A stretch of DNA of 64,000 nt, from the NCBI GenBank assembly GCA_963843575.1, contig CAWJKZ010000024.1, forward strand, positions 181,313 to 245,312, given 5' to 3'. The notes under the pieces were generated by a model, which did no database searches, was not told the DNA's origin, and saw only the letters and a program-made list of their open reading frames with translations. The position numbers and the translations under genes are program-made. The DNA comes from an uncultured Acidobacteriota bacterium (lineage in GTDB: Bacteria; Acidobacteriota; UBA6911). Below are positions 23,888-61,705 of the stretch, in pieces (the first letter of the stretch is position 1; each line of letters opens with the position of its first letter).

Positions 23888-23891
23888 GAAG

Positions 23892-29233: not shown

Positions 29234-29327
29234 AAGTGGGTCTGGGCTTCAGCCCGGACGTCTTTTGATCTGAGCTATACAGCTAAGCATGCGCTGTATA
29301 GCGACCGACGAACCAGCGTCCCACTTG
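29234..29327. mobile_element. MITE-like element copy: 27-bp arm AAGTGGGTCTGGGCTTCAGCCCGGACG, an internal palindrome GCTATACAGC...GCTGTATAGC, and a degenerate right arm
   Basis: Same arm as the copies at 46132, 53298, 55168 and 58699. Starts 3 nt after the stop of the FGE-domain gene. Confidence 0.65.
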
Positions 29328-33063: not shown

Positions 33064-33074
33064 AGGGGGCAGCC

Positions 33075-36132: not shown

Positions 36133-36135
36133 TGT

Positions 36136-36194: not shown

Positions 36195-36377
36195 GGCTAG
36201 GTTCGGCACAGGAAGGCAGGCGGCGCCGAGGCGCCGCCGGGGAAAGTGGCGCCGGCCGTGGCCGCGGCCGGCGCCCGAAGCGAGCGGAGGAGAGCGGCGG
36301 CATGTTCGGCAGGGACTGACGCCCGCCAAATCCCTTGCCGGCCGCGCGCCGACGCTCCACTCACCCCATCCCAAAAT

Positions 36378-45793: not shown

Positions 45794-46131
45794 CTGCATG
45801 CTTTATTCCCTTGTCCCAAAATCGCTTCCGGGAATCTGCACCCTGGAGGGGGCCAGGTAATCGTCTGGGCCGGAATGACCGGCGGCAAGCTTTGAACTCG
45901 CCCTAGGGGAGCCTGGAGGGGCTTTCATCACCATGCGATTCTCCATGAGTGGGTGTTTTATTACGGAGAGGTCAAGACAAACAATTCGTGGAGTTACCCA
46001 TTCTTGAATGGGTATAACTACTCAGTGGGCCTTGAGTGGGGATCTTTGAGATTCTTAGGGTCCTTTGAGACTTTGAGGTAAAGCTAAAATTCGCCTCGAA
46101 GACTCTAACTAACGGCCCGTCCCTCGCGCTC

Positions 46132-46299
46132 AAGTGGGTCCGGGCTTCAGCCCGGACGCAGTTTGCGGTCGCTATGCAGGGCAGGTGGAGCTGTATGGAA
46201 CGGATTTAAAGACGTCCGGGCTGAAGCCCGGACCCACTTGGTTTACGGGCAGGGCGGACGGTTAACCGTTGGACGGCCTCTGAAGCCCGGACCCACTTG
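46132..46299. mobile_element. MITE-like element, full copy: arm, about 55-bp spacer, inverted arm, about 40 bp, and a third partial arm
   Basis: AAGTGGGTCCGGGCTTCAGCCCGGACG at 46132-46158. Its reverse complement is at 46213-46239. Partial CTGAAGCCCGGACCCACTTGG at 46279-46299. Architecture matches the 55168 copy, including the shared GGTT.AACCG.TGGACG.CCTCTGAAGCCCGGACCCAC segment. Confidence 0.75.
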
Positions 46300-46321
46300 G
46301 TTTTTCTAATGCGGGATTTTG

Positions 46322-48024: not shown

Positions 48025-48507
48025 CTACCGGTTGCGGCTCCCCTCGAGTTCGAGGGCCCGGCGCCAGCTCTCGATGGCGCGGTCGCTGTCGCCGGCGAGA
48101 CGGTAGAGCCGCGCCTTGGTGGCCAGGATCTTGGCCCGGTTGGCGTTGAGCTCCGTGTTTTTGAGGGCCTCGTCCAGGAGTGTCTGGCCGAGGTCGAACC
48201 GGCGGATTTCCGCGAACTTGTCGGTGATGATGCTCAGGCTCTGCGCGACAAGGCTCTCGTACTCGGGTGGGAAGCGGAGCTGGATGATCTGGCGGGCCTC
48301 CGCCATCGCCTTGTCCAGGTCGCCCTTCTTTATGTAGAGCTCGGCCAGGTCGTGGTGGGCCTCGGCGAGGTCGAATTTCTGAGCCAGTTCCGGGCTGCGT
48401 GTCTGCGGCTGCGCCTGGCCGGAACCCACGACAGGGGCGCAGGCGAGCAGCAGGGCGAGAAGCGGGAGCTTCAGCGCCCTTGGGCCCAATGCGAGGTCAA
48501 GAATCAT
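48025..48507 (-). CDS. TPR-repeat lipoprotein
   Basis: Signal/lipobox-like N-terminus LPLLALLLACAPV and TPR helices (AEAHHDLAELYIKKGDLDKAMAEARQII; RAKILATKARLYRLAGDSDRAIESWRRALEL). Confidence 0.6.
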   Translation of the reverse strand: MILDLALGPRALKLPLLALLLACAPVVGSGQAQPQTRSPELAQKFDLAEAHHDLAELYIKKGDLDKAMAEARQIIQLRFPPEYESLVAQSLSIITDKFAEIRRFDLGQTLLDEALKNTELNANRAKILATKARLYRLAGDSDRAIESWRRALELEGSRNR

Positions 48508-48540
48508 ACGGACTGCTCCCTGGCGGGGATGCGCTCCCCG

Positions 48541-49056
48541 CTACCGGTCGGCGAATGGATTTCCCTTGCCCTGAATCAGGGTAGATTGATATCTCGTAAA
48601 AGGATTGCTGTAATCCTGTCCCAGGCTGCGGAACGGGTTCCCCGCTTCCTTGAGGCGGGCCTGCTCGACCGCGCCGTACTGCGCGATGGCGGTCAGCTCA
48701 CTCTGCCGGGCCGCGTCCCTGTACTGGCGGACTCCCACGGTCAAGGCGAGGAGCATGAACAGCGACAGGCTGACGCCGACGGCGAACTGCCGCGGCCTGG
48801 ACAACACTCCGAACCAGCCGGGGGCCGGCCGCGGCTCCTCGAGCCTCGCCCGGATCCGGAACCACTGCGCGGCGGGCACGTCGATCTCGAGCCCCGTCGA
48901 GCGGAACAGGAGGTCGACCGACCGCCACCGGGCGAGTTCGTCCCGGCAGCCCGCGCACGTCTCCAGGTGCCCGCGGATCTCCTCGAAGCGCGCGTCGGCG
49001 CGGTCGCCGTCGAGGTAAGGGCCGAAATCTGCGGGATGGTCTGTTCTCGCGTTCAT
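48541..49056 (-). CDS. Zinc-finger anti-sigma factor
   Basis: HLETCAGCRDELARW motif, one TM helix (FAVGVSLSLFMLLALTV), and a 4-nt overlap with the upstream ECF sigma gene. Confidence 0.65.
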   Translation of the reverse strand: MNARTDHPADFGPYLDGDRADARFEEIRGHLETCAGCRDELARWRSVDLLFRSTGLEIDVPAAQWFRIRARLEEPRPAPGWFGVLSRPRQFAVGVSLSLFMLLALTVGVRQYRDAARQSELTAIAQYGAVEQARLKEAGNPFRSLGQDYSNPFTRYQSTLIQGKGNPFADR

Positions 49057-49742
49057 CTTCGGATTTCCAGGTATTGCCCCAGGGACTTGCGCGCGAAAGA
49101 ACGGGCACGGAATATGTCCGTCTTGACCGACAGGAGCGAACGTCCCACGATGTCGGAAATCTCGGCGTAACTCTTTTCGTGAATCACGGCCAGCACGAAT
49201 ACCTCGCGAAGCTTCGGCGGGAGCGAACCGAGCACCACCCTGATCCGCGCCCCCAGTTCCTCCTGAAGAACCACATCCTGCGGGGTCGGCCGGCCGTCGG
49301 CCGGTTCGAACTCCGCCTGCTCCCTGCCGTCGCCCCCCACCGCTGGCGGCTGCCGGGGAGGCTCGCTCCGCTTTTTGCGGAACGTCTGATAAACCTCGTT
49401 TCTGGCGATGCGGTAGAGCCAGGATTCGAACCGCCCGGGATCCTGCAGCCTCGGGAGTTCGTGAAAGGCCCTCAGGAAAACGTTCTGCGCCAGATCTTCC
49501 GCGTCTTCCCGGCTATCTACCATCCGGTAGATGAAATTCAATATGCGCCGGCCGTACTCCTGGTGGACCTGCCGGAAGGCTTCCACCTCGCCGGCCTTGG
49601 CTCTCTGGATGAGTTCAGCCTGTTCGCTCTTCAAAAATCGTATCTCGAGGGTGAAAGGCTTTCCGTCGCAGAGCCGACTGCCAAGATGATCCGAGACGGA
49701 AAAAGTTGCAAAAAAAAGCTTGACTCGCCGCGGATTATGCAA
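49053..49742 (-). CDS. ECF-type sigma-70 factor (true start probably downstream of 49742)
   Basis: Region 2 (DLAQNVFLRAFHELPRLQDPGRFESWLYRIARN) and region 4 (LPPKLREVFVLAVIHEKSYAEISDIVGRSLLSVKTDIFRAR). Confidence 0.8.
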   Translation of the reverse strand: MHNPRRVKLFFATFSVSDHLGSRLCDGKPFTLEIRFLKSEQAELIQRAKAGEVEAFRQVHQEYGRRILNFIYRMVDSREDAEDLAQNVFLRAFHELPRLQDPGRFESWLYRIARNEVYQTFRKKRSEPPRQPPAVGGDGREQAEFEPADGRPTPQDVVLQEELGARIRVVLGSLPPKLREVFVLAVIHEKSYAEISDIVGRSLLSVKTDIFRARSFARKSLGQYLEIRR

Positions 49743-49829
49743 CCTTGCGGCCCCGCATGCCGTCCTGTATAGTCACATGGCTGCAGACGCCGCCAGGGTC
49801 TTTCGCGCACCCTTCAAGGAGTCGTTTTC

Positions 49830-51036
49830 ATGTCTCTCCCCAACCAGGACCGCCGTTCCCGCACCGGGCGGGCAGTCTGCCTGCTGGTTCGCAACCTTAT
49901 AATGGCCACGTCTGTTTTCGTCCTCTGGGCCGCCCCCATTATCGGCATGGACCAGGACGCTGTCCAGAGCACGGCACAGCCGGCCGACCCGGAGGCGCAG
50001 GTGCGGGCACGGATCACGGCCTACTGGGAAGCCATGCAGCGGGAGGACTACCGGGCGGCCGCGCAGTTCGTCCACCCGGCCTCCCGCGACCTTTTCGAAC
50101 ACAGGGTCCCCAAGTCCCGGATCGACCGGTGGAGCATCCAGAAGCTCCAGTTCAACGACGAGCGCACCGTGTGCGACGCTACCATCCTCGTTTCGAAACC
50201 CGTAGCCATTTTCGAATCCAACGTCGTCGACTGGCCCTTGAAAAACCAGTGGGTGCTGTTCGAGGGGGACTGGTACTTCAAGATCCCCTGGGACAGCAAG
50301 ACGAACCCGGCGCTCGAGTTGTTCCGCGCCCAGCAGGACACGGCCGCGAAAACGACCGAGATCCGCGAAGCCAGGCCGAGCACCGCCGCGCCGTCGGCCG
50401 AAGCGATCGAGCGGCTCGCCGCCACCCGGTTTTTCACGCCCGGACCCGGCCAACCCCTCGGTCGTCCACAACGGGCAGAAAAGCGTGTTCCGCTATCACT
50501 ACACCAACGCCAAGGCCACGGCGACGCGCATCGTCTCGGTCCACTCCGACTGCCACTGCACCAGTGTCAAGCAGGAGTACCCGGAGATCGCTCCGGGCGC
50601 GGAGGGGACAGTGGAGGTGACGCTGGACACCTTCGGGCTGCCGCTGGGATCTGTCCAGAAGGAAGTGTATGTCACGTTCGCCGACCAGGCGGATCCCCAG
50701 GTGATCCGGATCTCGGTCAAGAACCAGCCCAATTTCGCCGTCAGCCCCGCCCGGGTCAACTTCGGGCTGGTGGCGCGCGGCAAACCAGCCGAGGCGTCGC
50801 TCCGGATCGTCAACCAGAGCGGCCAGCCCGTGAAGCTGCTGTCGCACCTCAAATCCGACCCGAAGCTCCAGGTCGTCGTGGACAAGCCCGCCCTCGAACC
50901 GGGCGAGACGGCGACCGTGACGCTCCGCTACGACGCCTCCTCCGCCGGCGAGTTCCTTGACAGCCTCATGCTTCAGACGGACCTCGCGGCGGAACCCCTG
51001 ATCACGGTGGCCGTCCGCGGCGAAGTCGCCCGCTGA
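49830..51036 (+). CDS. Secreted protein with an NTF2-like N-terminal domain and a C-terminal DUF1573 domain (single frameshift near 50440, or two adjacent genes)
   Basis: DUF1573 signature NGQKSVFRYHYTNAKATATRIVSVHSDCHCTSV. A repeated Ig-like fold continues to 51036. Confidence 0.5.
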
Positions 51037-51039
51037 GGC

Positions 51040-51488
51040 TCGGAGAGAAGAACGCGGATTTCAGGGATCTAACGGATTCACGCGGCCTGCCACCCATGCC
51101 TTTATCTTCGTTCCGCGTGGATCCGCGGCCATCCGCGTCCGCAAAAGCAGGTTCTTTTTTTAATCAAATAGCTTTTTCCCCGCAACTTTTTGCCGATTTG
51201 TGCATCTGTGACCGTGTTGTTTGAGGTTCCCGTACGTGGGGACCCCCAGGACGACGTCCCTGAAATCAGTTGACATTCCCCGCGCTGGCTGTTAGGGTTG
51301 CGCCGCCAGTATGGGTAAGTCGTACGTTGTAGCATGTCCCTTCGAGAAGGGGTGTGCCGGCTTGTTTGCCGTTCGCCCTACAACGCGCCTTAGCTCGAAA
51401 TTACTTGGACCTCTAGATGAACCTATCGGACGCACGAAAGTCTGGTAGTCGTTACCCAATGCTCACCATTTACTTACGGAGAAAGCGT
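51040..51488 (+). promoter_or_regulatory. Long (about 450 nt) lower-GC 5' leader or promoter region of the putative surface-protein gene
   Basis: Locally lower GC. TTGACA at about 51271 with TAGGGT 17 nt downstream. RBS GGAGAAAG precedes the ATG at 51489. Confidence 0.35.
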
Positions 51489-53204
51489 ATGACTTTGTTG
51501 AAAGCTAGCAGAATGCCCTTGCTGGCGGGATTGCTATGTCTCCTGCTGCTGGGCTTCGCTGGAGCTTCCTACGGCGCGGTTCGCTTCGACGTTGTATCGT
51601 CGCCGACTGAAGTGATCAATACCGGCCGCTCGGAAGTCACGGGTTCCGTGAACCTGATCGTTCGCGGGGCTGGCAACGTGACGGGCACCTCCCTGGGCGG
51701 CAACACCCAGATCGGGTTTATTTACACGAACCCGGCCATGCAGATCGACAACACGACGACGTCCGGGATCAAGCTGGTCTACAGCGCCGGATTTACGTCC
51801 GCCAGCCCGCACTTCGCGCCTGTCGCGGTTGAGAACTTCGACTTGAACGGCCGCTGCTCGGGCCGTATCACGATCGTTCTTGCCGCCGGTGCGCAGCCGG
51901 TCGAAGGCGACTTCATCCGTGTCGAGGGTGTGCGTGGCAGAATCGATGCCAGCCTTGCCGTGACCCCGGGGACCGACCTCTACGTTGACCTGCAGTCGAT
52001 CAACGACCCGACCTCGGCCAACTTCACCCCGGACCGCGTCCGCGTGGCGAAGTCCCTGGACGGCATGAACGTGGCGATCTCGCCCGATACCCTGTTGCTC
52101 TGCTTCCCGACCACCGGCAGACCGCCGTCAGGCACCGAGAAGCCCAGCTACTACATCAGGATCACCGAGGGCTTCGCCCGCGCGTTCGTGGATCAGGATG
52201 CCAACAACGACGGCTCCTTGGCCACCGACCGCGTCGACTCCGGCAACGGCCTGATCGGCGTTACCACCGCTCCGGGCGCCCTGGGTGCACCGAACAACTC
52301 GACCCAGTTCCTCGTCTGGTTGGAATCCATCCCGACCAGCGTGGACGACATCGAGTGGCAGGCTTCCGTAGGAACCGACTCCTCGACCGGCGCCAGCCTC
52401 GTTCTGGTTGAGGACAGCGCCACCTTCTCCTCGACTCTCGGTGTGGCCACCGCCCTCTATTCTTATGAGAGCGTCAACCAGACCGACGTCAGCGATATCG
52501 CGGTTGAGGTCTTTACGCTCATGCCGACGATCATCCTGAAGAGCACCACGGCGACCACGACCGGAACGATTATGGCCGGCGTGAGCCTGGCTCCTGCGGT
52601 CGATGCACTCTCCGGCTGCCCGGTCCCGACCGGTTCGTCCACGATCGGCCGTCCTCGCTTCCTGAGAATGTTCGAGTCCGACGCGGTTGCCACCAACAAC
52701 CCGCCGGATGACCCGCTGAAGCCCTATGCTCAGGTCATTCGCTGCAACTGCTACATGCTGTTCACCTATGTCACTGCGACCGCCGACTTCAACACCGGCA
52801 TCGCGGTGGCCAACACCACTGGTGACACGGCTCCGTTCGGCGTGAACGAGGCTCCGGATCAGCTTGGTAAGATCACCTTCTACTTCTACGATCGTACCGC
52901 CGGCTACGTGGGGACGACCGAGACCGCCGCTGATATTCAGACCGGCCGTAGCTATGTTGATCTGGTTTCCAACATCCTGCCGACTGGTGTGACCAGCTTC
53001 TCCGGTTACATCATCGCCAAGGCGGACTTCCAGTTCTGCCACGCCTTCGCCTTCATCGCGGACACCGGGTTCGCTTCGATCGCGCACGGCTACGTGGCGA
53101 ACATCATTCCTGACCCGGCGATCAAGAACATCAACGATCGCAGGGCTCCCGCCGCGGCTGCGGACGTGTTCAACATTCCTGCGGGTGAAAGCCTGAACAA
53201 CTAG
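51489..53204 (+). CDS. Putative abundant secreted/surface protein (S-layer-like candidate), 571 aa
   Basis: Intact. Signal peptide MTLLKASRMPLLAGLLCLLLLGFAGASYGA. Thr/Ser/Gly/Ala-rich with beta-rich composition and no enzyme motifs. Strong terminator immediately downstream. Confidence 0.45.
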   Translation: MTLLKASRMPLLAGLLCLLLLGFAGASYGAVRFDVVSSPTEVINTGRSEVTGSVNLIVRGAGNVTGTSLGGNTQIGFIYTNPAMQIDNTTTSGIKLVYSAGFTSASPHFAPVAVENFDLNGRCSGRITIVLAAGAQPVEGDFIRVEGVRGRIDASLAVTPGTDLYVDLQSINDPTSANFTPDRVRVAKSLDGMNVAISPDTLLLCFPTTGRPPSGTEKPSYYIRITEGFARAFVDQDANNDGSLATDRVDSGNGLIGVTTAPGALGAPNNSTQFLVWLESIPTSVDDIEWQASVGTDSSTGASLVLVEDSATFSSTLGVATALYSYESVNQTDVSDIAVEVFTLMPTIILKSTTATTTGTIMAGVSLAPAVDALSGCPVPTGSSTIGRPRFLRMFESDAVATNNPPDDPLKPYAQVIRCNCYMLFTYVTATADFNTGIAVANTTGDTAPFGVNEAPDQLGKITFYFYDRTAGYVGTTETAADIQTGRSYVDLVSNILPTGVTSFSGYIIAKADFQFCHAFAFIADTGFASIAHGYVANIIPDPAIKNINDRRAPAAAADVFNIPAGESLNN

Positions 53205-53221
53205 GCTTATCCCACACGGGA

Positions 53222-53268
53222 TCAATAAAGGGGGTAGCTCCCTCACCGGGGGCTACCCCCTTTTTGTG
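53222..53268 (+). terminator. Rho-independent terminator
   Basis: GGGGGTAGC-tccctcaccgg-GGGGCTACCCCC followed by TTTTTGT, 18 nt after the stop. Confidence 0.8.
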
Positions 53269-53297
53269 TGTCGCAATAAGCAGGCGCCAAATAAAGC

Positions 53298-53385
53298 AAG
53301 TGGGTCCGGGCTTCAGCCCGGACGCCTTTTGCACTTGTACATAGTGCAAGTCAAACTACGTCCGGGCTGAAGCCCGGACCCACTT
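53298..53385. mobile_element. MITE-like element, short copy (arm, about 34-bp palindromic spacer, inverted arm), followed by a REP-like half-arm at 53389-53407
   Basis: AAGTGGGTCCGGGCTTCAGCCCGGACG at 53298-53324. Its reverse complement is at 53359-53385. Spacer contains the palindrome TTGCACT-TGTACAT-AGTGCAA. Confidence 0.75.
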
Positions 53386-53428
53386 GGGAGGCGGCGCCGC
53401 ACTCCAATTTCTGCTATCATCCCCTGCC

Positions 53429-54154
53429 GTGTACAAGAGCCGCCCCATCACCGTCGTCATCCCGTGCCTGAACGAGGAGAAAGGCATCGTCGAGGTACTC
53501 TCCCGCATGCCCTCGTTCGTCGACGAGGTCATCGTCGTCGACAACAACTCGACCGACCGCACCCCCGAGCTCGCCCGCCGACACGGAGCGCGCGTGATCC
53601 ACGAGAAGGTCCGGGGATACGGCCGCGCTTACAAGACCGGCCTCCTCGAAGCTCAAGGGGACATCGTCGTCACGCTCGACGGCGATCACTCCTACCCGGT
53701 GGACGCTATTTCCTATCTCCTGGAAATCTTCCTCCGCTCCGAGGTCCGCTTCGTGTCGGCCTCGCGGTTCCCTCTGAAGAACCGGCGCGCGATGTCGGCG
53801 AAGCACTGGCTGGGCAACCGGCTCCTGAGCCTGGCGATGTCGGTCCTCTATTTCCGCTGGGTCCGCGACTCCCAGTCCGGCATGTGGGTGTTCGAGCGGG
53901 ACAGCCTCTCCCGGATGCACCTCGAGAGTGACGGCATGGCCTTCAGCGAGGAGATCAAGATCGAGGCCATCCGCAACCGGCACATCGGGTTCAAGGAGAT
54001 CTACATCGACTATTCCAACCGCATGGGCGAGATCAAGCTGCAGCCGTGGCGCGACGGCTGCCGCAACCTCGCGTTCCTGGTAAAGAAGCGGTTTGGGTGG
54101 CGGCGACGGCGCGACGCGGCGCCGCTCGTGCAGAAATCGGAGACCCCGCGGTGA
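53429..54154 (+). CDS. Glycosyltransferase family 2 (Dpm1/polyprenyl-phosphate sugar synthase-like)
   Basis: GTG start. Motifs ITVVIPCLNEEKGIVEV and DEVIVVDNNSTDRTPELA. DGD is the DxD motif. Confidence 0.8.
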   Translation: MYKSRPITVVIPCLNEEKGIVEVLSRMPSFVDEVIVVDNNSTDRTPELARRHGARVIHEKVRGYGRAYKTGLLEAQGDIVVTLDGDHSYPVDAISYLLEIFLRSEVRFVSASRFPLKNRRAMSAKHWLGNRLLSLAMSVLYFRWVRDSQSGMWVFERDSLSRMHLESDGMAFSEEIKIEAIRNRHIGFKEIYIDYSNRMGEIKLQPWRDGCRNLAFLVKKRFGWRRRRDAAPLVQKSETPR

Positions 54155-55200
54155 CGACCAGGGTGGACGGGACCGATCGACCCGGCGCCGCGGCTCCCTG
54201 TCCCGTTTGCCGGCGCGCCGACGCGCCGTTGTACGGCGTCGGACGCGACCGCCTCTTCGGCCTTGCGCCGGGTGAATACCGGCTGTACCGCTGCCGCGGC
54301 TGCCGCTGCATATTCCAGCACCCCCTCCCCCCGGAGCCGGCGCTGGCGGGCTTCTACCCCGAGGAATACTGGTGGGACGGCGCGGCTGGGAACCGCGGGG
54401 CCGCTTCCGGGATGCTCGCGCGGGCCGAGCTTCTCTATCGAGAAACCGTCGTGCGCGACCACGTGCGCTTCGTCGCGCGCTGTGCCGGAGCCGGGGGCTC
54501 CGGTCTCCGGCTCCTCGACATCGGCTGCGGGAGCGGCACTTTCCTGGCGATGGCGGGGCGGCGCGGCTTCCAACCCTGCGGCATGGATGTCTCCGAGCGC
54601 GCGGTCGCGGCCGCCCGGCGGCAGTACGGTCTCGACGTGCGCCACGGCGGGATCGGCAGCGCGCTCTGGGAGCCCGCGAGCTTCGACCTGGTGACGATGT
54701 TCCACGTCCTCGAGCACGTCCGCGACCCGCGCGGCGCGCTCGACTATGCCCGCGGCCTGCTCAAACCCTCGGGACGGCTCGTCGTGCAGGTCCCCAACGC
54801 GAGATCGCTCCAGGCCAGGGCGTTCGGGACGCGCTGGTACGGTCTGGACGTGCCCCGGCACCTCATCAACTTCAGCGCCGACGGCCTGGAGATCCTGCTG
54901 CGCGAGGCCGGACTGGAGATCCGCGCCGTCTCCCGTTTTTCGCTCCGCGACAACCCTGCGGCCCTCGCCTCGAGCGCGGCCCCGGCCCTGGACCCCATCG
55001 GCCGCAAGGGGCGGCGGCGCGACGCCGGCCGGCCGGCGGCCCGGGCCGCCCTCGAGCTCGCCTACTTCTCCCTGACCCTCCTGGCCCTGCCGCTCGCCCT
55101 CGCCGAGAGCGCCTTCGGGCTGGGCGCGACCCTCTGGGTCGCCGCAAGCCCGACCAACAGAAGAATAAGTGGGTCCGGGCTTCAGCCCGGACGCCTTTAG
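54151..55200 (+). CDS. Class I SAM-dependent methyltransferase. Its C-terminal tail runs into the MITE arm.
   Basis: GTG start overlapping the GT2 stop. Motif I LLDIGCGSGTF, plus DLVTMFHVLEHVRDP and KPSGRLVV. The last residues (...RISGSGLQPGRL) are translated from MITE sequence. Confidence 0.75.
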   Translation: MTTRVDGTDRPGAAAPCPVCRRADAPLYGVGRDRLFGLAPGEYRLYRCRGCRCIFQHPLPPEPALAGFYPEEYWWDGAAGNRGAASGMLARAELLYRETVVRDHVRFVARCAGAGGSGLRLLDIGCGSGTFLAMAGRRGFQPCGMDVSERAVAAARRQYGLDVRHGGIGSALWEPASFDLVTMFHVLEHVRDPRGALDYARGLLKPSGRLVVQVPNARSLQARAFGTRWYGLDVPRHLINFSADGLEILLREAGLEIRAVSRFSLRDNPAALASSAAPALDPIGRKGRRRDAGRPAARAALELAYFSLTLLALPLALAESAFGLGATLWVAASPTNRRISGSGLQPGRL

Positions 55201-55335
55201 ATCCGCCTCATCTAGAAACAGTTTCACGTCATAGTTTCAGCAAACTACGTCCGGGCTGAAGCCCGGACCCACTTGTTTTTCCGGCAGGCCGGGTGGTTCA
55301 ACCGCTGGACGACCTCTGAAGCCCGGACCCACCTG
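55168..55335. mobile_element. MITE-like element, full copy (arm, about 54-bp spacer, inverted arm, about 40 bp, partial third arm)
   Basis: Arms at 55168-55194 and 55249-55275. Partial arm at 55316-55335. Same layout as the 46132 copy. Confidence 0.75.
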
Positions 55336-55384
55336 AGTTTTCATTTGCGCGCTGCCGTGACCACGGATAGGATCTTTCCCCATC

Positions 55385-56383
55385 ATGGCAAATCTCCGGC
55401 TGACGAAAGTGAAAGTGCTGGTGACCGGCGGCGGCGGGTTTATCGGCAGCCACCTGTGCGAGCTCTGCGCCCGCGAGGGGGCGGAGGTGCGGGCGTTCGT
55501 CCATTACAACTCGCGCTCCGACTGGGGCATGCTCGAGCTCCTGGACCGGCGCGTGCTCAAGGGTATCGAAGTGCAGTCCGGGGACCTGCGCGACGCGGAA
55601 GCGGTACGCCGGGCGGTGCGCGGATGCAACTTCGTGTTCCACCTCGGGGCTTTGATCGGCATCCCCTATTCGTACGTGAACCCGCTCGATGTCGTGTCCA
55701 CGAACGTGCTGGGGACTGCGCACGTGCTGCAGGCAGGCCGCGAGTTTTCGATCGAACGCATCGTGCAGACTTCGACGAGCGAGGTGTATGGCACAGCGCA
55801 GTACGTGCCCATGGACGAGGCGCACCCGCTCGCGCCGCAGTCCCCTTACGCGGCGTCGAAGGTGGCGGCCGACAAGCTGGCTGAAAGCTACCACAGGGCT
55901 TACGGCCTCCCTGTCACCATCGTGCGGCCGTTCAACACCTACGGCCCGCGCCAGTCGCCCCGTGCCGTTATCCCGACGATCGTGCTGCAGGCCCTGCGGG
56001 GCAAACGGATTCGGTTGGGTAACACGGGCCCGAGCCGCGACCTGACCTTCGTCACCGACACGGCGCGCGGTTTCGTCGACGCCGCCTTGAGTCCGGCCGC
56101 GGAGGGGCAGACGGTGCAGCTGGGTTCGGGGACCGAGACCTCGGTGCGGGACTTGGTCGCCGCCGTCGCGGCGATTCTCGGCAAGGAACTTGTCGTCGTG
56201 CGCGAGCGCCGGCGTGAACGACCCCGGGGAAGCGAGGTGGAGCGCCTGTATGCGTCCAACCGGCGCGCCGCCGACCTGACAGGCTGGCGGCCGACGGTGC
56301 CGCTGGCGCGGGGTCTGCAAAAAACGATACACTGGTTCCGTGGCCGGACGGCCCTTTACAAAACGGATCTTTACCATGTCTAG
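55385..56383 (+). CDS. NAD-dependent epimerase/dehydratase (SDR family; UDP-sugar 4-epimerase or 4,6-dehydratase-like)
   Basis: Rossmann motif VLVTGGGGFIGSHL and catalytic YAASK. Intact 332 aa. Confidence 0.85.
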   Translation: MANLRLTKVKVLVTGGGGFIGSHLCELCAREGAEVRAFVHYNSRSDWGMLELLDRRVLKGIEVQSGDLRDAEAVRRAVRGCNFVFHLGALIGIPYSYVNPLDVVSTNVLGTAHVLQAGREFSIERIVQTSTSEVYGTAQYVPMDEAHPLAPQSPYAASKVAADKLAESYHRAYGLPVTIVRPFNTYGPRQSPRAVIPTIVLQALRGKRIRLGNTGPSRDLTFVTDTARGFVDAALSPAAEGQTVQLGSGTETSVRDLVAAVAAILGKELVVVRERRRERPRGSEVERLYASNRRAADLTGWRPTVPLARGLQKTIHWFRGRTALYKTDLYHV

Positions 56384-57170
56384 CCCCACAGAACCGCAAA
56401 TCGTCGTCGTGCTGCCGGCGTACAATGCGGCGAAGACCCTCGAGCAGACCTACGCCGATTTGCCCAAGGACAAGATCTCGAAGATCATCCTGGTGGACGA
56501 CGTCAGCCAGGACCAGACCGTGGAGGTCGCCAAGGCCCTCGGGCTTTCGGTCGTGATCCACGTGCAGAACCGGGGTTACGGCGGCAATCAGAAGACGTGC
56601 TACCTCGAGGCGCTCAAGCACGGCGCGGACGTCGTGGTGATGCTCCACCCCGATCACCAGTACGACTCGCGCCTCGTCCCCGAGCTCGTGCGCCCCATCC
56701 TGGAGGGGCGCGCCGACATGGTGATGGGCTCGCGGATCATGAACGGTCGCGCCCTCCAGGGGGGCATGCCGAAGTGGAAGTACCTGGCCAACCGGGCGCT
56801 CACCATCACCGAGAACTTTGTCTTCCGCACCCGGCTGACCGATTGCCACAGCGGATTTCGCGCCTACAGCCGCAAGCTGCTCTCCACCGTCCCGTTCCTG
56901 CTCAACTCCGACGATTTTGTCTTCGACTCCCAGATGATCGCCCAGGCGGTGCACCTGGGATTCACCATCACCGAGATCGCGGTCCAGGCTCGTTATTTCC
57001 CCGAAGCCTCCAGCGTGAACTTCAAGGTGAGCACCGTTTACGGCATCAAGACGCTGGGCGTGCTCGGGAGTTTCCTGCTGCAGCGGTCCGGCGCAGCCCA
57101 CTTCCGCATCTTCGAACGCACTCTGCCGGAGGTGATCAGCAAGTACTACCATGAGGGGATCTTCCGCTGA
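56376..57170 (+). CDS. Glycosyltransferase family 2
   Basis: Motifs IVVVLPAYNAAKTLEQTY and ILVDDVSQD. Confidence 0.8.
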   Translation: MSSPTEPQIVVVLPAYNAAKTLEQTYADLPKDKISKIILVDDVSQDQTVEVAKALGLSVVIHVQNRGYGGNQKTCYLEALKHGADVVVMLHPDHQYDSRLVPELVRPILEGRADMVMGSRIMNGRALQGGMPKWKYLANRALTITENFVFRTRLTDCHSGFRAYSRKLLSTVPFLLNSDDFVFDSQMIAQAVHLGFTITEIAVQARYFPEASSVNFKVSTVYGIKTLGVLGSFLLQRSGAAHFRIFERTLPEVISKYYHEGIFR

Positions 57171-57197
57171 GGCCCGGCCGTCCTGAAAGCCCGGCCC

Positions 57198-58292
57198 GTG
57201 CACCCGCGCCCGAAGGGTGGAGCAGAGCGATTGTATCTACAGTGCGAGCACAACTCGAAACAACCGGGACTCGTTCCCGGTCTGGTTTCGGTCGTGGTGG
57301 TGAACTGGAACGGGATGGGGTACCTGCCCGAGTGCCTCGAGTCCGTCCGAATGCAGTCGTACGACCGGAAGGAGATCGTGGTCGTCGACAACGGCTCGAC
57401 CGATGGCTCGCGCGAATGGCTGCGCGCCCACCCGCCCGAGTGCGGCCGCCTGGTCCAGCTCGACTCGAACCGCGGCTTCGCCGGCGGCGTGAACGCGGGC
57501 ATCCGCGTGTCGTCCGGTGAATACGTCGCGCTGCTGAACAACGACGCGGTCGCCGAGCGCGACTGGCTGACGCACCTGGTGGCCTCCGCGGCCGATCCCG
57601 CCGTCGGTATGGTCGCCTCGAAAATCCTGTTCTACGACCGGCGCGGCGTGATCGACAAGACGGGCCACCTGCTTTACCCCGACGGTCTGAACCGCGGCCG
57701 CGGGGCGGGCGAGACCGACAGCGGGCAGTACGACCGGGACCTGGAGATCCTGTTCCCGGACGGGTGCGCGGCCCTCTACCGCCACCGGATGCTCCACGAG
57801 ATCGGGCTGTTCGACGAAGAGTTCTTCGCCTACGGCGACGACGCGGACCTCGGGCTGCGGGCCTGCTGGCAGGGCTGGAAGTGCGCCTACGCGCCCGGGG
57901 CCCGGGTCTACCACCGCCACTCCAGCAGCCTGGGGAAATACTCGCCCGAAAAGGCGTTCCTGGTGGAGCGCAATCGGTTCTGGGTCGCGGTGAAGCTCCT
58001 GCCCTGGCACCGCCTCGCCCTTTCGCCGTTCTTTACAATGTGGCGCTTTTGCTGGCACATTAGCAGTGTTTTCGCAGACAGGGGGCTGGCGGGGGGCGTC
58101 GCCCGGGACCACAACGCAGGCAGGCTGGCGTGGGCCTTGGTGCGCGCTTACGTCTCCGGCATATCCGGCCTGATCAACATCCTGCGCAAGCGCAGGGACG
58201 TGTTCCAGACGAGGCGCATCCGTTCGGCCGAATTCTGCCGGCTGATCCGCAAGTACCGGATTTCGGCCCGGGAACTCGCGCTGCGCGACTGA
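57198..58292 (+). CDS. Glycosyltransferase family 2 (rhamnosyl/GalNAc-transferase-like; start uncertain)
   Basis: Motifs VSVVVVNWNGMGYLPECLESV, IVVVDNGSTDGS and a DxD-like DDADL. Confidence 0.75.
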   Translation: MHPRPKGGAERLYLQCEHNSKQPGLVPGLVSVVVVNWNGMGYLPECLESVRMQSYDRKEIVVVDNGSTDGSREWLRAHPPECGRLVQLDSNRGFAGGVNAGIRVSSGEYVALLNNDAVAERDWLTHLVASAADPAVGMVASKILFYDRRGVIDKTGHLLYPDGLNRGRGAGETDSGQYDRDLEILFPDGCAALYRHRMLHEIGLFDEEFFAYGDDADLGLRACWQGWKCAYAPGARVYHRHSSSLGKYSPEKAFLVERNRFWVAVKLLPWHRLALSPFFTMWRFCWHISSVFADRGLAGGVARDHNAGRLAWALVRAYVSGISGLINILRKRRDVFQTRRIRSAEFCRLIRKYRISARELALRD

Positions 58293-58297
58293 TCACT

Positions 58298-59350
58298 ATG
58301 GCCACGACGGTCTTTCTCACCGGGGGTACGGGCTACCTCGGCGGCACGCTCCTGCGTCAGCTCCTGGACGCGGGCTACGCCGTGCGCGCGCTGGTCCGGC
58401 GCGCGCCGGCCCCCCTCCCCGCGGGCGAGGTGGAGCCGGTTGTGGGCGACCTTTCGGATCCGGACCGCCTGGCCGGGCCCATGAGGGGGTGCGCCGCCGT
58501 GTTTCACAGCGCGGCCCTGGTCTCGTGCTGGGCCCGCGACCGCCAGGACTTTTACCAGACCAACGTCGACGGTTTGCGCAACGTGTTGCGCGCCGCGGCG
58601 GCTGCGGGGACGGGAACAGTAGTCTACACGTCGTCGTTCTTCGCGCTCGGCCCGGCGGAACTGCCGGGGGCGCGCGAGGACTCCGGGGCCGAGCCCACAA
58701 GTGGGTACGGGCTTCAGCCCGGACGTAGTTTGCGTTGGCTTGGCGGCGTGTGCGGAACGCCCCCCTATCTTCACAGCAAGTTTCTGGCGCGCGCAGAGGC
58801 CCGGCAGGCGAAGGCGTCGGGATTCCCGATCGTGATCCTGTATCCCGGGGTGATCTACGGCCCGGGGCGCCGCACCGCCGGGAACCTCGTCGGCCGCCTC
58901 GTTGCGGACTTCGTGTCGGGGCGCATGTCCGCGCTGCTTGGCAACGGCCGCCAGATCTGGTCCTTCGCTTTTATCGAGGATGTCGCCCGCGGCCACCTGC
59001 GGGCCATGGAGCGGGCCGCCGGCGGGGGCGAGTTCGTCCTCGGCGGCGACAACGTGTCGCTGCGCGGGTTTTACGAGATCCTGGCGCGGCTTTCAGGCCG
59101 GCCCGCGCCGCGGCTGCGCCTCCCCGCGGTGCTCGGCGCCCTGGCCGGCGCGCTCGAGTTCGCGCGCGCGCGGGCCCTCGGCTCGATCCCCGCCGCCACC
59201 CCGGCCACCGTGCTGGCGATGTACAAGAGCTGGGCTTGCGATTCGGGCAGGGCGCAGGCGGAACTGGGGTACGACTGCACGCCCCTGGAACAGGGGCTGC
59301 GCCTCACGCTGGACGCGATGGACGTGCCCACCGGCGAGGGGCGCCAATGA
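58298..59350 (+). CDS. NAD-dependent epimerase/dehydratase (SDR) carrying an in-frame solo MITE-arm insertion
   Basis: Rossmann motif VFLTGGTGYLGGTLLRQL and catalytic YLHSK. The 27-bp MITE arm at 58699-58725 encodes an SGYGLQPGRS-type insertion just upstream of the catalytic Tyr, without breaking the frame. Confidence 0.75.
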   Translation: MATTVFLTGGTGYLGGTLLRQLLDAGYAVRALVRRAPAPLPAGEVEPVVGDLSDPDRLAGPMRGCAAVFHSAALVSCWARDRQDFYQTNVDGLRNVLRAAAAAGTGTVVYTSSFFALGPAELPGAREDSGAEPTSGYGLQPGRSLRWLGGVCGTPPYLHSKFLARAEARQAKASGFPIVILYPGVIYGPGRRTAGNLVGRLVADFVSGRMSALLGNGRQIWSFAFIEDVARGHLRAMERAAGGGEFVLGGDNVSLRGFYEILARLSGRPAPRLRLPAVLGALAGALEFARARALGSIPAATPATVLAMYKSWACDSGRAQAELGYDCTPLEQGLRLTLDAMDVPTGEGRQ

Positions 59351-59393
59351 TCCTGCGTTCGTGGAACGCCGCCGGAGCGGATCGGAGTTGCGC

Positions 59394-60113
59394 GTGCTGA
59401 ATTCACGGGTGAAAAGCCTGGCCCGGCGCATCCTGCCGGACGTCGTCGCCGGATGGCTCGACCCGGTCGAGCGCACCATCGACTCCGAGGTGCGCCGTGC
59501 CGCCGCGCTGGTGGGCGACGGCCAGGTCGTGCTCGACGCCGGCGCCGGGGAAGCGCGGCACCGCGGCTTTTTCCAGCGCGGGCGCTATGTCGCCCTGGAT
59601 GCCGGGTCCGGCGACCCGGCCTGGGATTACTCGGGGCTCGACGTCCGCGGGGACCTGGGGTGCCTCCCGCTGCGCGCCCGCAGCGTGGACGGGGTGCTCT
59701 GCATGGTGGTCCTCGAGCACACGCGCGACCCGCGCCGCACCCTGGCGGAGTTCGGGCGGGTTCTCAAACCCGGCGGTTTCCTGGTCATGGTCGTGCCTTT
59801 CCTCTGGGAGGAACACCAGGCGCCCCACGACTACTTCCGGTTCACCCGCCACGGCGTGCGGCTCCTCTTCGAGGGCCTCCCGTTCAGGATCGACCTGCTG
59901 TCCCCGCTCGGCGGCTTTTTCCGCGTTTGCGCGCGCCGCTGTGTGAACCTGCTCGGCTTCTTCCAGCAGGGGTGGCGCTGGCCGCTCTTCGTGCTGCTCG
60001 CGCCGTTTTTCGGGCTGCTCTTCCCGGTGCTCCTCCATTTTCTCGACGGGCTGGACCGTTCCAGGGAATTTTCCCTGGGTTTCCAGATCCGGGCGACCAG
60101 GGACCAGGACTGA
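59394..60113 (+). CDS. Class I SAM-dependent methyltransferase (Methyltransf_11-like)
   Basis: Motif I VVLDAGAGEARH, plus VDGVLCMVVLEHTRDP and KPGGFLVMVVP. The C-terminus is hydrophobic. Confidence 0.65.
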   Translation: MLNSRVKSLARRILPDVVAGWLDPVERTIDSEVRRAAALVGDGQVVLDAGAGEARHRGFFQRGRYVALDAGSGDPAWDYSGLDVRGDLGCLPLRARSVDGVLCMVVLEHTRDPRRTLAEFGRVLKPGGFLVMVVPFLWEEHQAPHDYFRFTRHGVRLLFEGLPFRIDLLSPLGGFFRVCARRCVNLLGFFQQGWRWPLFVLLAPFFGLLFPVLLHFLDGLDRSREFSLGFQIRATRDQD

Positions 60114-61705
60114 TGCCGGAGACAAAGACCAGCCCGGTCCTCGACCACGGCCTCGTCCTGCTGCTCTGTGCCGCGACGTGGGGCATCAACGCCGCGTGGC
60201 TCAGGATGGACACCCGCCCCCCGGTCTGGGACATGGCCATGCACCAGGCGTACGCCCTAAACTACCTGCCGGATGGACAGCCGCCGGGGTTTGCCCACGA
60301 GCGCTCGGGCACCTATCCGCCGTTCGTCCACCTCGTCATCGCGGCGTTCTACGCAGCCCTGCACCCGGGGCGCAACGTCGCGGCCCTGGCGAACCTCCCG
60401 GCCACGCTGTTGCTGCTGTGGGCGATCTATCTCCTTGCCCGGGACCTGTCCGGGGCATCCGCGGCACGCTGGGCGTGTTTCTTCACGGCGGCGACGCCCT
60501 TCCTGCTCTGGATGTCCAGGGAGACGGTCCTCGACTACTGGCTTTCCGCGTGGTTCGCGGTGGCGCTCCTCCTGCTGCACCGTTGTGGTTCGTTCGAATC
60601 AAGGCCCGCCGCCCTCTTGCTCGGCCTCGTCATCGGTCTCGGGATGCTGACGAAGTGGTTTTTTGCCGGGCTCCTGGTCTTTCCCCTGGGCTTCGTGCTG
60701 GTGCGGCAAAGGATTTGGCGCGACTCTGAACGCATGGTCCGGCTGTTCGACGCGCTTCTGGTGGCGGGGTTCGCGGCGGGCGTGTGGTATCTGCCGAACA
60801 TCCCCCGGCTGATGGCCTACTTTGGCGCGAACATGTCGATCGGGGCGCGCGAGGGGGAACCGCCGGTGCTGTCGTGGCAGTCCGCCATCTACTACCTGCG
60901 GCTGCTCGAGGGCTACCAGTTGTTCGCGCTGCTGTTTGTCGTCGCCGCGGCCGGGACGGCGGTGGCGCTGAGGAGACGGCTGCTGTCCGACCCGGCCTTC
61001 TGGGCCGTGTCGGTCGCAGGCGGGTGGCTCGTCTTCACGCTGCTCAGGACCAAGGACCCCCGTTTCACCATGCCGCTGCTCGGGCCGCTGATGATCGCCT
61101 CCGGAGCGTGGCTGTCCTCCTGGCGCCACGATTTCACGCGCGGCGCGGCCAAGGTGGCGGTCGTCGCACTTCTGTGCGTCCAGGCCTACGCCGTCAATTT
61201 CGGCATCCCGTGGCTCCCGCGCGCCGTGGTGCTGGCCCGGGGATATCAGGGCTCGCTGCGCTGGGACTGGAACCTCTACCTGCAGGACTATTTCGGCATT
61301 CTCGGGCCGCCGCGGCGCGAAGACTGGCGCCAGCACGAGATCCTGGGCCGGATCGCGCGGCATGCGGCTGAAAACCGCGAGCGCCCGTCCCTTGCCGTGG
61401 TCCCGGACCTGCCGCATTTCAGCGCCGCGAATTTCCTGCTTCAGTCCCGGCTGGACGGTTCGCCCATGAGGGTCGACCACCCGCAGTCCGCGGCCGCTGG
61501 AGTCAGGGCCTTCGACGGTTTCAGCTATGTGCTGATGACCGAAGGGGACCAGGGGATGTCGTGGACGACCGGCGCCGCTCGCGCCCTGAACCAGATTATC
61601 GTGGACGAGCACGACGTTTTCCGGATACTGGAGCTCTACCCGCTGCCAAACGGGGATTACGTCCGGCTCTATCACATCGACCGGGAGGGAAGAACCGGTG
61701 GGTGA
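60113..61705 (+). CDS. GT39/GT83-family (PMT/ArnT-like) integral-membrane glycosyltransferase
   Basis: Intact 530 aa. About 11 TM helices in the N-terminal 320 aa, then a soluble C-terminal domain. TGATG overlap with the upstream gene. Confidence 0.6.
   Translation: MPETKTSPVLDHGLVLLLCAATWGINAAWLRMDTRPPVWDMAMHQAYALNYLPDGQPPGFAHERSGTYPPFVHLVIAAFYAALHPGRNVAALANLPATLLLLWAIYLLARDLSGASAARWACFFTAATPFLLWMSRETVLDYWLSAWFAVALLLLHRCGSFESRPAALLLGLVIGLGMLTKWFFAGLLVFPLGFVLVRQRIWRDSERMVRLFDALLVAGFAAGVWYLPNIPRLMAYFGANMSIGAREGEPPVLSWQSAIYYLRLLEGYQLFALLFVVAAAGTAVALRRRLLSDPAFWAVSVAGGWLVFTLLRTKDPRFTMPLLGPLMIASGAWLSSWRHDFTRGAAKVAVVALLCVQAYAVNFGIPWLPRAVVLARGYQGSLRWDWNLYLQDYFGILGPPRREDWRQHEILGRIARHAAENRERPSLAVVPDLPHFSAANFLLQSRLDGSPMRVDHPQSAAAGVRAFDGFSYVLMTEGDQGMSWTTGAARALNQIIVDEHDVFRILELYPLPNGDYVRLYHIDREGRTGG

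What the first reader, a model, noticed from the sequence alone, without database searches (positions are those of the whole stretch)
53298..55335. Two MITE copies precisely bracket a GT2-methyltransferase gene pair, and a solo arm is inserted in-frame in a downstream epimerase
Copies at 53298-53385 and 55168-55335 flank exactly the GT2 (53429-54154) and methyltransferase (54151-55200) genes. The downstream copy supplies the last roughly 10 codons and the stop of the methyltransferase (...RISGSGLQPGRL). A solo arm at 58699-58725 lies inside the SDR epimerase 58298-59350 without breaking the frame. It adds roughly 10-17 residues (SGYGLQPGRS...) just before the catalytic YLHSK. Together this suggests a MITE-mediated cassette movement into the glycan locus and ongoing remodelling of enzyme termini and loops by the element, which may be a source of surface-glycan variation.
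Basis: partly seen in the sequence, partly recalled or inferred. Interest (0 to 1): 0.65.

Follow-up and report, generated by a model that had tools for sequence, protein, structure and literature searches.

The report
Palindromic repeats clipping two glycan-locus enzymes
A small palindromic mobile repeat (two inverted copies of a REP-type stem-loop) landed several times in a conserved sugar-modification gene cluster of an uncultured, probably acidobacterial, genome, rewriting the tail of one enzyme and leaving an 18-residue in-frame loop in another; it did not bring any genes with it, and this kind of event is already known.

Summary
The repeats are real: 11 matches to the 22-nt core against 0 expected. 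The element is an inverted doublet of the arm (C)AAGTGG-GTCCGGGC-TTCA-GCCCGGAC-G. The downstream copy supplies the last 10 codons and the stop of the methyltransferase. A 54-nt half-element adds 18 residues, five residues before the catalytic Tyr of the SDR enzyme, and is absent from 57 homologues.

The cassette idea is refuted. A relative with about 84% nucleotide identity is collinear across the locus. It has the GT2-methyltransferase pair in the same place and no repeat. Two more distant relatives also keep the pair.

"MITE" is imprecise. 43 doublets from metagenomes show no target-site duplication. The IS701-like insertion sequence found next to some arms has its own ends and duplicates the hairpin, so the hairpin is its target. 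The same stem-loop, tagged GGTAG, flanks REP-associated tyrosine transposase genes in three Acidobacteriaceae genomes. The best reading is a REPIN-type element with tag GTGG. Its own transposase was not found.

The SDR looks intact: dN/dS is 0.21, the AlphaFold core is confident, and the insert is modelled as a disordered loop. Its activity is untested. Only 1 of about 90 sampled arms lies inside a gene. This is a new member of a known kind and of modest interest.

The parts
53298..53385 (.). Copy B: 88-nt inverted doublet (arms 53298-53324 and 53359-53385). It lies between the terminator of the upstream gene and the conserved 43-nt leader of the GT2 gene.
   Evidence: Both arms match the 27-nt consensus exactly. 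As RNA it folds to -77.4 kcal/mol, z = -14.1. The related locus L001 has no copy here.
53429..54154 (+). GT2 glycosyltransferase gene, 241 aa.
   Evidence: Pfam Glycos_transf_2, E = 3.9e-24. Orthologues of 241-244 aa sit at the same position in L157 and in the contig of P0005.
54151..55200 (+). Class I SAM methyltransferase gene. Its start overlaps the GT2 stop by 4 nt. The last 10 codons (SGSGLQPGRL) and the TAG stop come from copy C.
   Evidence: Pfam Methyltransf_23, E = 2.8e-29. Translation. C-termini of relatives are ...LWVAASPLRVGGKP* in L001 and ...IWIQARRRDRQSES* in L157, against ...LWVAASPTNRRISGSGLQPGRL* here.
55167..55274 (.). Copy C: 108-nt inverted doublet (arms 55167-55193 and 55248-55274). 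It overlaps the 3' end of the methyltransferase ORF.
   Evidence: Arms match the consensus exactly. It is the reverse complement of copy A at 81% identity, with identical arms and a spacer only about 57% identical (I1, 88). It folds to -68.3 kcal/mol, z = -12.2.
55275..55335 (.). Tail after copy C, ending in a third, partial arm (CTCTGAAGCCCGGACCCACC). The same tail follows copy A at 46240-46300.
   Evidence: The two tails align with each other and with a metagenome locus, L143 (D16).
58298..59350 (+). Extended-SDR gene ('NAD-dependent epimerase/dehydratase', 350 aa) carrying the 18-residue insert at residues 134-151, five residues before the catalytic Y157-x3-K161.
   Evidence: Pfam Epimerase hit is split into 2 stretches. 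Alignments A1 and A6. AlphaFold2 mean pLDDT 91.3, with residues 131-150 at about 50. dN/dS against L001 is 0.21.
58699..58752 (+). In-frame 54-nt half-element: a left arm with one C-to-A change, A-type spacer, and no right arm.
   Evidence: The empty site in L001 reads GAGCCC GCC GGG CGG CAC CCT TAT. The stretch is 88% identical to the left end of copy A over 48 nt (D1). It has no stable fold left, z = -0.55.
46132..46300 (.). Copy A: 108-nt doublet plus tail, in another intergenic region.
29234..29325 (.). Copy E: a doublet whose right arm has lost its hairpin (...CGTCCCACTTG). It starts 3 nt after the stop of the ORF 28259-29230.
   Evidence: (I2, I3).
53227..53263 (+). Intrinsic-terminator-like hairpin of the upstream gene (51417-53204). 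It is not part of the repeat and marks the 5' limit of the intergenic space that copy B entered.
   Evidence: 16-bp stem followed by a T run. Conserved in L001.

Best explanation
The repeat is a REPIN-type non-autonomous element. It consists of two inverted copies of a REP-like unit: the tag GTGG, an 8-bp GC stem, a 4-nt loop and the 8-bp return, joined by a variable spacer. The whole element can fold into a perfect 28-bp hairpin.

After this lineage split from its closest sampled relative, copies inserted without target duplication into several intergenic gaps of a pre-existing, conserved GT2-MT-dehydratase-GT2-GT2-SDR-MT-PMT_2 glycan locus.
- One copy landed on the last few codons of the methyltransferase. 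It replaced a poorly conserved C-terminal tail and supplied a new stop.
- One copy landed inside the SDR gene. It survives as a 54-nt half-element that keeps the frame, has lost its partner arm and its hairpin stability, and encodes an extra, probably disordered, surface loop just ahead of the catalytic helix.

That two copies flank the GT2-MT pair is a by-product of the preference for intergenic sites, not a sign that the pair moved.

Shown here: the anatomy, absence from the relative, conserved synteny, no TSD, and the same stem-loop flanking RAYT genes in related bacteria.

Inferred: mobilisation by a RAYT-type tyrosine transposase encoded elsewhere in this genome; a full 108-nt insertion in the SDR followed by a 54-nt deletion; and retained SDR activity.
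For: Anatomy and abundance:
- 11 core matches against 0 expected.
- 74 metagenome contigs carry the exact 26-nt arm, with 43 inverted doublets of 76-220 nt and 46 solo arms.
- Arms are identical between copies while spacers are only about 57% identical.
- Doublets fold at z = -11 to -14.

No TSD: none was found at any boundary offset or length across 44 elements, and the flanks extend the palindrome (C at -1, G at +1).

REP character:
- The tag GTGG plus an 8-bp stem fits the GTAG-superfamily definition, which includes GTGG variants and 6-9-bp stems (PMC3733652).
- The identical 20-nt stem-loop with tag GGTAG forms a doublet 87 nt upstream of a REP-associated tyrosine transposase gene in L003 (NCBIfam NF047646, 90.3 bits against a cutoff of 80; Pfam Y1_Tnp).
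- Near-identical units flank RAYT homologues in L166 and in Occallatibacter riparius, L167.

Later insertion into an old locus:
- L001 is collinear with window 48122-63990 at 83-86% identity. The only breaks are at the two repeat sites, and it has no repeat copy.
- The GT2-MT pair is conserved in L001, L157 and the contig of P0005.

SDR insert:
- It is unique among 58 sequences, and L001 shows the empty site.
- The same insert-bearing protein is on a separate Logan contig.
- The AlphaFold core is confident and the insert has low pLDDT. dN/dS is 0.21. 55 of 57 near-invariant positions are kept.
- A full A-type element is stop-free over all 36 codons in the orientation and frame used in the SDR.
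Against: - No RAYT gene was found in the window or in the 74 metagenome loci that carry the exact arm. The link to a tyrosine transposase therefore rests on a shared stem-loop in other Acidobacteriota, whose tag differs (GGTAG against AGTGG).
- Three IS701-like copies are bounded by these arms, which at first sight looks like a MITE and its parent.
- The intergenic empty sites of B and C cannot be aligned base by base with L001, so exact insertion points are known only for the SDR copy.
- Retained SDR activity is not shown. dN/dS averages over the whole divergence, most of which may predate the insertion.
- The copy number in the source genome is unknown.
Confidence: 0.68

Rival explanations
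1. The repeat is a true MITE: an internally deleted derivative of the IS701-like insertion sequence (457-aa DDE transposase plus a 110-aa HARE-HTH protein) found in metagenomes, mobilised in trans through shared terminal inverted repeats.
For: - L125, L140 and L145 carry a 1.9-kb unit with an intact transposase (NCBIfam transpos_IS701_3, E = 3.8e-35; Pfam DDE_5). It is bounded by the same 28-nt CAAGTGGGTCCGGGCTTCAGCCCGGAC.
- Homology between the three copies stops at the outer ends of the arms.
- One doublet (L135) contains about 15 nt of IS-end sequence.
Against: - The IS has its own conserved ends, (C)TGGAGTTTnTACATTTTT, inside the hairpins. Relatives with 77-86% identical transposases sit next to unrelated GC hairpins.
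- In two long-read contigs (L158, L163) and in L140 and L145 the same 17-22-nt hairpin is repeated directly, loop included, on both sides of the IS. That pattern is a target duplication, not a terminal inverted repeat.
- Most doublet spacers lack the IS-end motif.
- The doublets have no TSD.
- REPs are documented targets of IS elements from five families (PMC1525189).
Confidence: 0.12
2. One reading: the two flanking copies mobilised the GT2-methyltransferase pair as a cassette into the glycan locus.
For: Copies lie on both sides of exactly these two genes.
Against: - The pair is in the same place, with the same 4-nt overlap, in three relatives whose SDR is 54-85% identical. The two whose DNA could be read have no repeat.
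- The nucleotide identity of the pair to L001 (84.4%) matches that of the flanking blocks (83-86%).
- Two further copies sit in unrelated intergenic gaps of the window.
- In other Acidobacteriota the same type of hairpin brackets ordinary single genes, such as a GyrI-like gene in L061 and an ABC ATPase in L014.
Confidence: 0.03
3. The SDR gene is a fresh pseudogene or an inactive enzyme. An 18-residue insert five residues before the catalytic Tyr abolishes activity, and the open frame is simply too young to have decayed.
For: - The insert lies in the segment between the catalytic Ser region (TSS 111-113) and Y157. In extended SDRs this segment lines the substrate cleft (general knowledge of the fold).
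- Pfam splits the domain hit in two.
- dN/dS (0.21) is the second highest of the five genes compared.
- The repeat arm has only 1 change from consensus, so the event is recent.
Against: - There is no stop or frameshift.
- 55 of 57 near-invariant positions are kept, similar to the homologues.
- The predicted core is unperturbed, pLDDT 91.3 and pTM 0.91.
- The remnant has lost the partner arm and its hairpin stability, which is what selection for a translatable, tolerated insert would leave.
- The protein was assembled twice, on the 520-kb contig and on a Logan contig.
Confidence: 0.3

Closest known systems
REPINs / GTAG-tagged REPs mobilised by RAYTs (Bertels and Rainey; Nunvar et al.; Di Nocera et al. 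2013, PMC3733652)
   Same: - A short GC-rich stem-loop (8-bp stem, 4-nt loop) preceded by a GT[A/G]G tag.
- Units paired in inverted orientation around a variable spacer, folding into a long hairpin.
- No target duplication, mostly intergenic, often just after stop codons.
- The identical stem-loop flanks RAYT genes in three Acidobacteriaceae genomes.
   Different: - The tag is GTGG within a longer conserved CAAGTGG, not GTAG.
- No RAYT has been linked to this exact variant.
- Acidobacteriota were not among the phyla with GTAG REP families in the 2013 survey.
- Some copies carry a third, partial arm in a 60-nt tail.
Rickettsia palindromic elements (RPEs) and other intragenic palindromic repeats such as ERIC, BOX and Coxiella QMITE1 (reviewed in PMC10969869)
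   Same: A palindromic repeat inserted in frame into an enzyme gene, adding a peptide predicted to sit outside the folded core. Element-derived residues also occur at a C-terminus.
   Different: RPEs do this routinely: nearly half of the 44 copies reported in R. conorii. Here it is 1 of about 90 sampled arms, and the survivor is a half-element rather than a full copy.
Classical bacterial MITEs (for example Correia elements, Nezha)
   Same: Small, non-coding, terminal inverted repeats, many copies, able to alter gene ends.
   Different: No target-site duplication and no parent IS sharing its ends. The only associated IS uses the hairpin as a target.
REP-targeting insertion sequences (IS1397, ISKpn1, IS621, ISPpu9/10, ISRm22; PMC1525189)
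   Same: The IS701-like element seen in related loci inserts at REP-type hairpins, including this family's arms.
   Different: The family is IS701-like with a HARE-HTH accessory ORF. The apparent duplication covers the whole 17-22-nt stem-loop, not the 0-6 bp reported for those elements. This concerns loci outside the window.

Membership tests
REP / REPIN (GTAG superfamily, RAYT-associated) | A 20-40-nt palindromic unit with a 6-9-bp stem and a short loop | tested here: met
   GTCCGGGC-TTCA-GCCCGGAC has an 8-bp stem and a 4-nt loop. A compensatory stem variant, GGGCGGGC...GCCCGCCC, occurs in L041.
REP / REPIN (GTAG superfamily, RAYT-associated) | Unpaired GTAG-type tetranucleotide at the 5' foot of the stem | tested here: inconclusive
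   The tag is GTGG in all arms. GTRG and GTGG variants are documented (PMC3733652), but canonical GTAG is not present.
REP / REPIN (GTAG superfamily, RAYT-associated) | Two units in inverted orientation around a spacer, folding into one long hairpin, with arms better conserved than the spacer | tested here: met
   43 doublets of 76-220 nt. Folding energies of -68 to -77 kcal/mol, z below -11. Arms are 100% identical against about 57% for the spacer between A and C.
REP / REPIN (GTAG superfamily, RAYT-associated) | Insertion without target-site duplication | tested here: met
   No direct repeat at any offset (-4 to +11) or length (2-9) in 44 elements.
REP / REPIN (GTAG superfamily, RAYT-associated) | A RAYT gene in the same genome flanked by the same REP | not testable with these tools
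   - Only 64 kb of the genome is held, and no Y1 transposase is in it or in the 74 arm-bearing metagenome loci.
- Indirect support: the same stem-loop with tag GGTAG flanks RAYT genes in L003, L166 and L167.
MITE (IS-derived, DDE-mobilised) | Small, non-coding, with terminal inverted repeats, in multiple copies | tested here: met
   88-108 nt, 27-35-nt inverted arms, 5 copies in the window and 74 metagenome contigs.
MITE (IS-derived, DDE-mobilised) | Short target-site duplication flanking the element | tested here: not met
MITE (IS-derived, DDE-mobilised) | A full-length IS whose own termini match the MITE ends | tested here: not met
   The IS701-like element ends in TGGAGTTTnTACATTTTT. The hairpin outside it varies between relatives and is directly duplicated in L158, L163, L140 and L145.
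Composite, repeat-bounded gene cassette | The bounded genes are present or absent together with the flanking repeats when related genomes are compared | tested here: not met
   The GT2-MT pair is present at the same position in three relatives. The two whose DNA was readable have no repeat.
RPE-like protein-coding palindromic elements | Recurrent in-frame insertion into unrelated ORFs with a conserved encoded peptide | tested here: not met
   - One deep intragenic case among about 90 arms.
- The same frame (SG[SY]GLQPGR) is used at the MT tail and in the SDR.
- That coincidence is weak evidence, because 5 of the 6 frames of the arm are open.

The most novel reading that the evidence does not exclude
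The 18-residue REP-derived loop next to the catalytic Tyr is not merely tolerated. On this reading it changes the substrate range or partner binding of the SDR in a lipid-linked glycan pathway, so REPIN insertion would be a source of new enzyme loops in Acidobacteriota.

A second, separate reading concerns data outside the window. The very abundant IS701-like/HARE-HTH insertion sequence may recognise REP-type cruciforms and duplicate the entire stem-loop on insertion (17-22 bp). That target mechanism has not been described for the REP-targeting IS elements on record.
Probability: 0.12. Interest if true: 0.6.

Novelty: new member of a known kind. Interest (0 to 1): 0.3.

Why it matters
The result gives a clean, dated example of how palindromic repeats edit genes. 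A filled site and an empty site are available at about 84% identity. It shows a replaced C-terminus with a new stop, and a half-element fixed as an in-frame loop beside an active site. It also extends GTAG-type REP/REPIN biology to an uncultured Acidobacteriota lineage.

It is also a caution. Two repeats flanking a gene pair do not make a cassette. Synteny in relatives settles the question, and here it settles it against gene movement. The practical consequence is small unless the SDR loop proves to have a function.

Tried and rejected
- Rfam scan of the whole window: no family.
It returned mostly GGTAG/GATAG-tagged relatives from Acidobacteriaceae and not the source genome. Only L041 had the exact AAGTGG arm, so the copy number in the source genome could not be measured.
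- MITE-of-IS701 hypothesis: it looked strong at first. It was abandoned after the IS ends and the direct hairpin duplications were seen.
- TSD search at all offsets: negative.
- Search for a recurrent ORF next to the arms: it found only the IS701-like genes.
- Candidate RAYTs between hairpin pairs in L021, L061 and L014: these turned out to be nothing, a GyrI-like protein and an ABC ATPase respectively.
It found L003, which was then confirmed with NCBIfam and Pfam.
- The L003 RAYT against all held loci: no further hit. Its 120 best database homologues include none on a 520,231-nt or 1,646,296-nt contig, so no link to the window genome or to L001.
- Base-level empty sites for copies B and C: the intergenic DNA is too diverged from L001.
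- Promoter scan around the copies: no sigma-70-like site. The right arm of C scores as terminator-like, but this was not pursued.
Full report
**Observation**

The 22-nt core GGGTCCGGGCTTCAGCCCGGAC occurs 11 times in the window with up to 3 mismatches, against none in 100 shuffles. Some of these are the palindrome read on both strands. Reading the sequence shows that the unit is an arm, (C)AAGTGG-GTCCGGGC-TTCA-GCCCGGAC-G. The arm occurs as inverted pairs:

| Copy | Window position | Description |
|---|---|---|
| A | 46132-46239 | 108-nt doublet, followed by a tail |
| B | 53298-53385 | 88-nt doublet |
| C | 55167-55274 | 108-nt doublet, followed by a tail |
| E | 29234-29325 | right-arm hairpin deleted |
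| solo | 58699-58725 | left arm only |

A and C are each followed by a similar tail of about 60 nt that ends in a third, partial arm. All six arms of A, B and C match the 27-nt consensus exactly.

Pfam confirms the gene calls: GT2 at 53429-54154, a class I methyltransferase at 54151-55200, and an extended SDR at 58298-59350.

The methyltransferase ORF runs 34 nt into copy C. Its last ten codons (SGSGLQPGRL) and its TAG stop are element sequence. The SDR ORF reads through the solo arm.

**Is the SDR insert ancestral?**

It is not. In an alignment of 58 homologues, the 18 residues SGYGLQPGRSLRWLGGVC are present only in the window protein.

The closest homologue, at 85% identity, comes from a 1.6-Mb contig (L001). 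It shows the empty site GAGCCC GCC GGG CGG CAC CCT TAT. The extra 54 nt are 88% identical to the left end of copy A over 48 nt. That stretch covers the arm plus at least 15 nt of spacer, and no right arm follows (family D1).

A full A-type element is 108 nt. In the orientation and frame used here it is free of stops over all 36 codons. A full in-frame insertion followed by loss of half the palindrome is therefore a plausible history, but this is inferred.

The remnant no longer folds better than shuffled sequence (z = -0.55). The intact doublets fold at -68 to -77 kcal/mol, with z of -11 to -14.

**Did the repeats move the GT2-MT pair?**

They did not. L001 aligns with window 48122-63990 in four collinear blocks of 83-86% identity. 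The only breaks are at the sites of copies B and C, and L001 contains no copy of the repeat.

L001 has the GT2-MT pair in the same place. So do L157, whose SDR is 54% identical, and the JGI contig carrying P0005, at 64-65%. Both have the same 4-nt overlap between the two genes. L157 has no arm either.

The pair is therefore an old, syntenic part of a locus that reads DUF1573 protein - unknown protein - GT2 - MT - (variable gene) - GT2 - GT2 - SDR - MT - PMT_2 - PMT_2. The repeats arrived later, in the window lineage.

Flanking of ordinary genes by the same type of hairpin also occurs elsewhere. Examples are a GyrI-like gene in L061 and an ABC ATPase in L014.

The C-terminal 10-15 residues of the methyltransferase differ among all three readable relatives. 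The element replaced a tail that was already poorly conserved.

**What is the element?**

A metagenome scan with the exact 26-nt arm returned 74 contigs. They hold 43 inverted doublets, with modes near 81-91, 108-113 and 145-147 nt, and 46 solo arms. No target-site duplication appears at any boundary offset or length. Instead the flanks extend the palindrome: C at -1 in 39 of 44 elements and G at +1 in 43 of 44.

Three contigs (L125, L140, L145) carry a 1.9-kb unit bounded by the arms. It encodes a 457-aa DDE transposase and a 110-aa HARE-HTH protein. The transposase matches NCBIfam transpos_IS701_3 at E = 3.8e-35, which is 121.6 bits against a cutoff of 170, and Pfam DDE_5.

This looked like the parent IS of a MITE, but the idea did not hold:
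- All relatives share an inner end, (C)TGGAGTTTnTACATTTTT, while the GC hairpin just outside it differs from copy to copy.
- In two long-read contigs (L158, L163) and in L140 and L145, the same 17-22-nt hairpin, loop included, is repeated directly on both sides of the IS.

The hairpin is therefore the target of this IS, and apparently its target duplication, not its terminus. REPs are known targets of IS elements from five families (PMC1525189).

The arm fits the published description of GTAG-superfamily REPs. These have an unpaired GT[A/G]G tag, with GTGG variants recorded, 6-9-bp stems, and frequent pairing in inverted orientation (PMC3733652).

The genome scan with the stem-loop alone found the identical 20-mer, preceded by GGTAG or GATAG, throughout Acidobacteriaceae. 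In L003 such a doublet lies 87 nt upstream of a 139-aa gene. That gene passes the NCBIfam REP-associated tyrosine transposase model (90.3 bits, cutoff 80) and Pfam Y1_Tnp.

Two homologues of that gene are flanked in the same way by GGTAG-GTCCGGGCTTTAGCCCGGAC. One of them is in the complete genome of Occallatibacter riparius.

The best reading is therefore a REPIN-type element. Its own RAYT was not found. None lies in the window or in the 74 arm-bearing loci, and the rest of the source genome could not be read. This step is inferred.

**State of the SDR**

- AlphaFold2 on the 58-sequence alignment gives mean pLDDT 91.3 and pTM 0.91.
- Residues 131-150 sit at about 50 and have no secondary structure. 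They lie between strand 120-125 and the helix 156-173 that carries Y157 and K161.
- The protein keeps 55 of 57 near-invariant positions.
- dN/dS against L001 is 0.21, against 0.06-0.22 for its neighbours.
- The same 350-aa protein is on record on a second, 3.6-kb Logan contig.

None of this shows activity. An insert five residues before the catalytic Tyr could well disable the enzyme, and I give that about 0.3.

**Comparison and verdict**

Intragenic REPs and MITEs, element-encoded C-termini, and even EPS gene clusters flanked by REP arrays are on record (PMC3733652; PMC10969869). Rickettsia RPEs are the extreme case. Here only one of about 90 sampled arms lies deep inside a long ORF, so there is no sign of systematic protein remodelling or of glycan variation.

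The finding is a real and well-resolved example of a known process in a little-studied lineage. The lineage is probably Acidobacteriota, judging from the names of homologues and from the one genome hit with the exact arm, a Terriglobia MAG. I rate it as a new member of a known kind, with interest about 0.3.

Noticed in passing
L158 3505-5419; L163 ~1020-2920; L140 281-2193; L145 65-1983; L125 346-2254 (not in the window): - An IS701-like insertion sequence (459-aa DDE transposase plus a 111-aa HARE-HTH ORF; ends TGGAGTTTnTACATTTTT) sits at GC-rich REP-type hairpins.
- In four copies it is flanked by a direct duplication of the whole 17-22-nt stem-loop.
- The transposase has more than 5,500 database hits. 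Most are unnamed and on contigs of about 2 kb.
- Short-read copies with mismatched flanks (L159-L161, L164) may be assembly chimeras.
   Followed up: partly
window 1684-1791, 15564-15658, 23865-23892, 33029-33067, 36122-36237: A second, unrelated palindromic repeat family with core (A)TGGAGTGCGGCGGCTCGnCGCCG, also occurring as inverted doublets (D4, D5, D10, D13, I9, I13, I20, I24).
   Followed up: no
window 46131-46239 versus 55167-55275, and tails 46240-46300 / 55275-55335: Copy A is the reverse complement of copy C at 81% identity, yet both are followed on the same side by a tail in the same orientation. L143 shows the same arrangement. The doublet may therefore insert in either orientation next to a tail-type sequence, or flip in place.
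   Followed up: partly
L001 ~5170-5899: The GT2 orthologue in the closest relative is broken across three reading frames, and only a 79-aa piece was called as a gene. This could be indel errors in a long-read assembly or a real pseudogene.
   Followed up: no
L041 2964-3064: A neighbouring arm carries GGGCGGGC-TTCA-GCCCGCCC in place of GTCCGGGC-TTCA-GCCCGGAC. Two stem positions have changed on both sides, so pairing is kept.
   Followed up: no
L056 5271-7458 (Bacteroidales MAG): The same 20-nt stem-loop recurs seven times at a regular spacing of 271 nt (542 nt in two places) inside a tandem array, in a phylum unrelated to the others.
   Followed up: no
window 53386-53428: The 43 nt between copy B and the GT2 start are conserved with L001, although the rest of the intergenic region is not. 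This suggests a leader or promoter element that the insertion spared.
   Followed up: no
window 14241-14510: A short run of GGC/TAC-rich direct repeats (Gly/Tyr-rich if translated) (D3, D6, D17).
   Followed up: no
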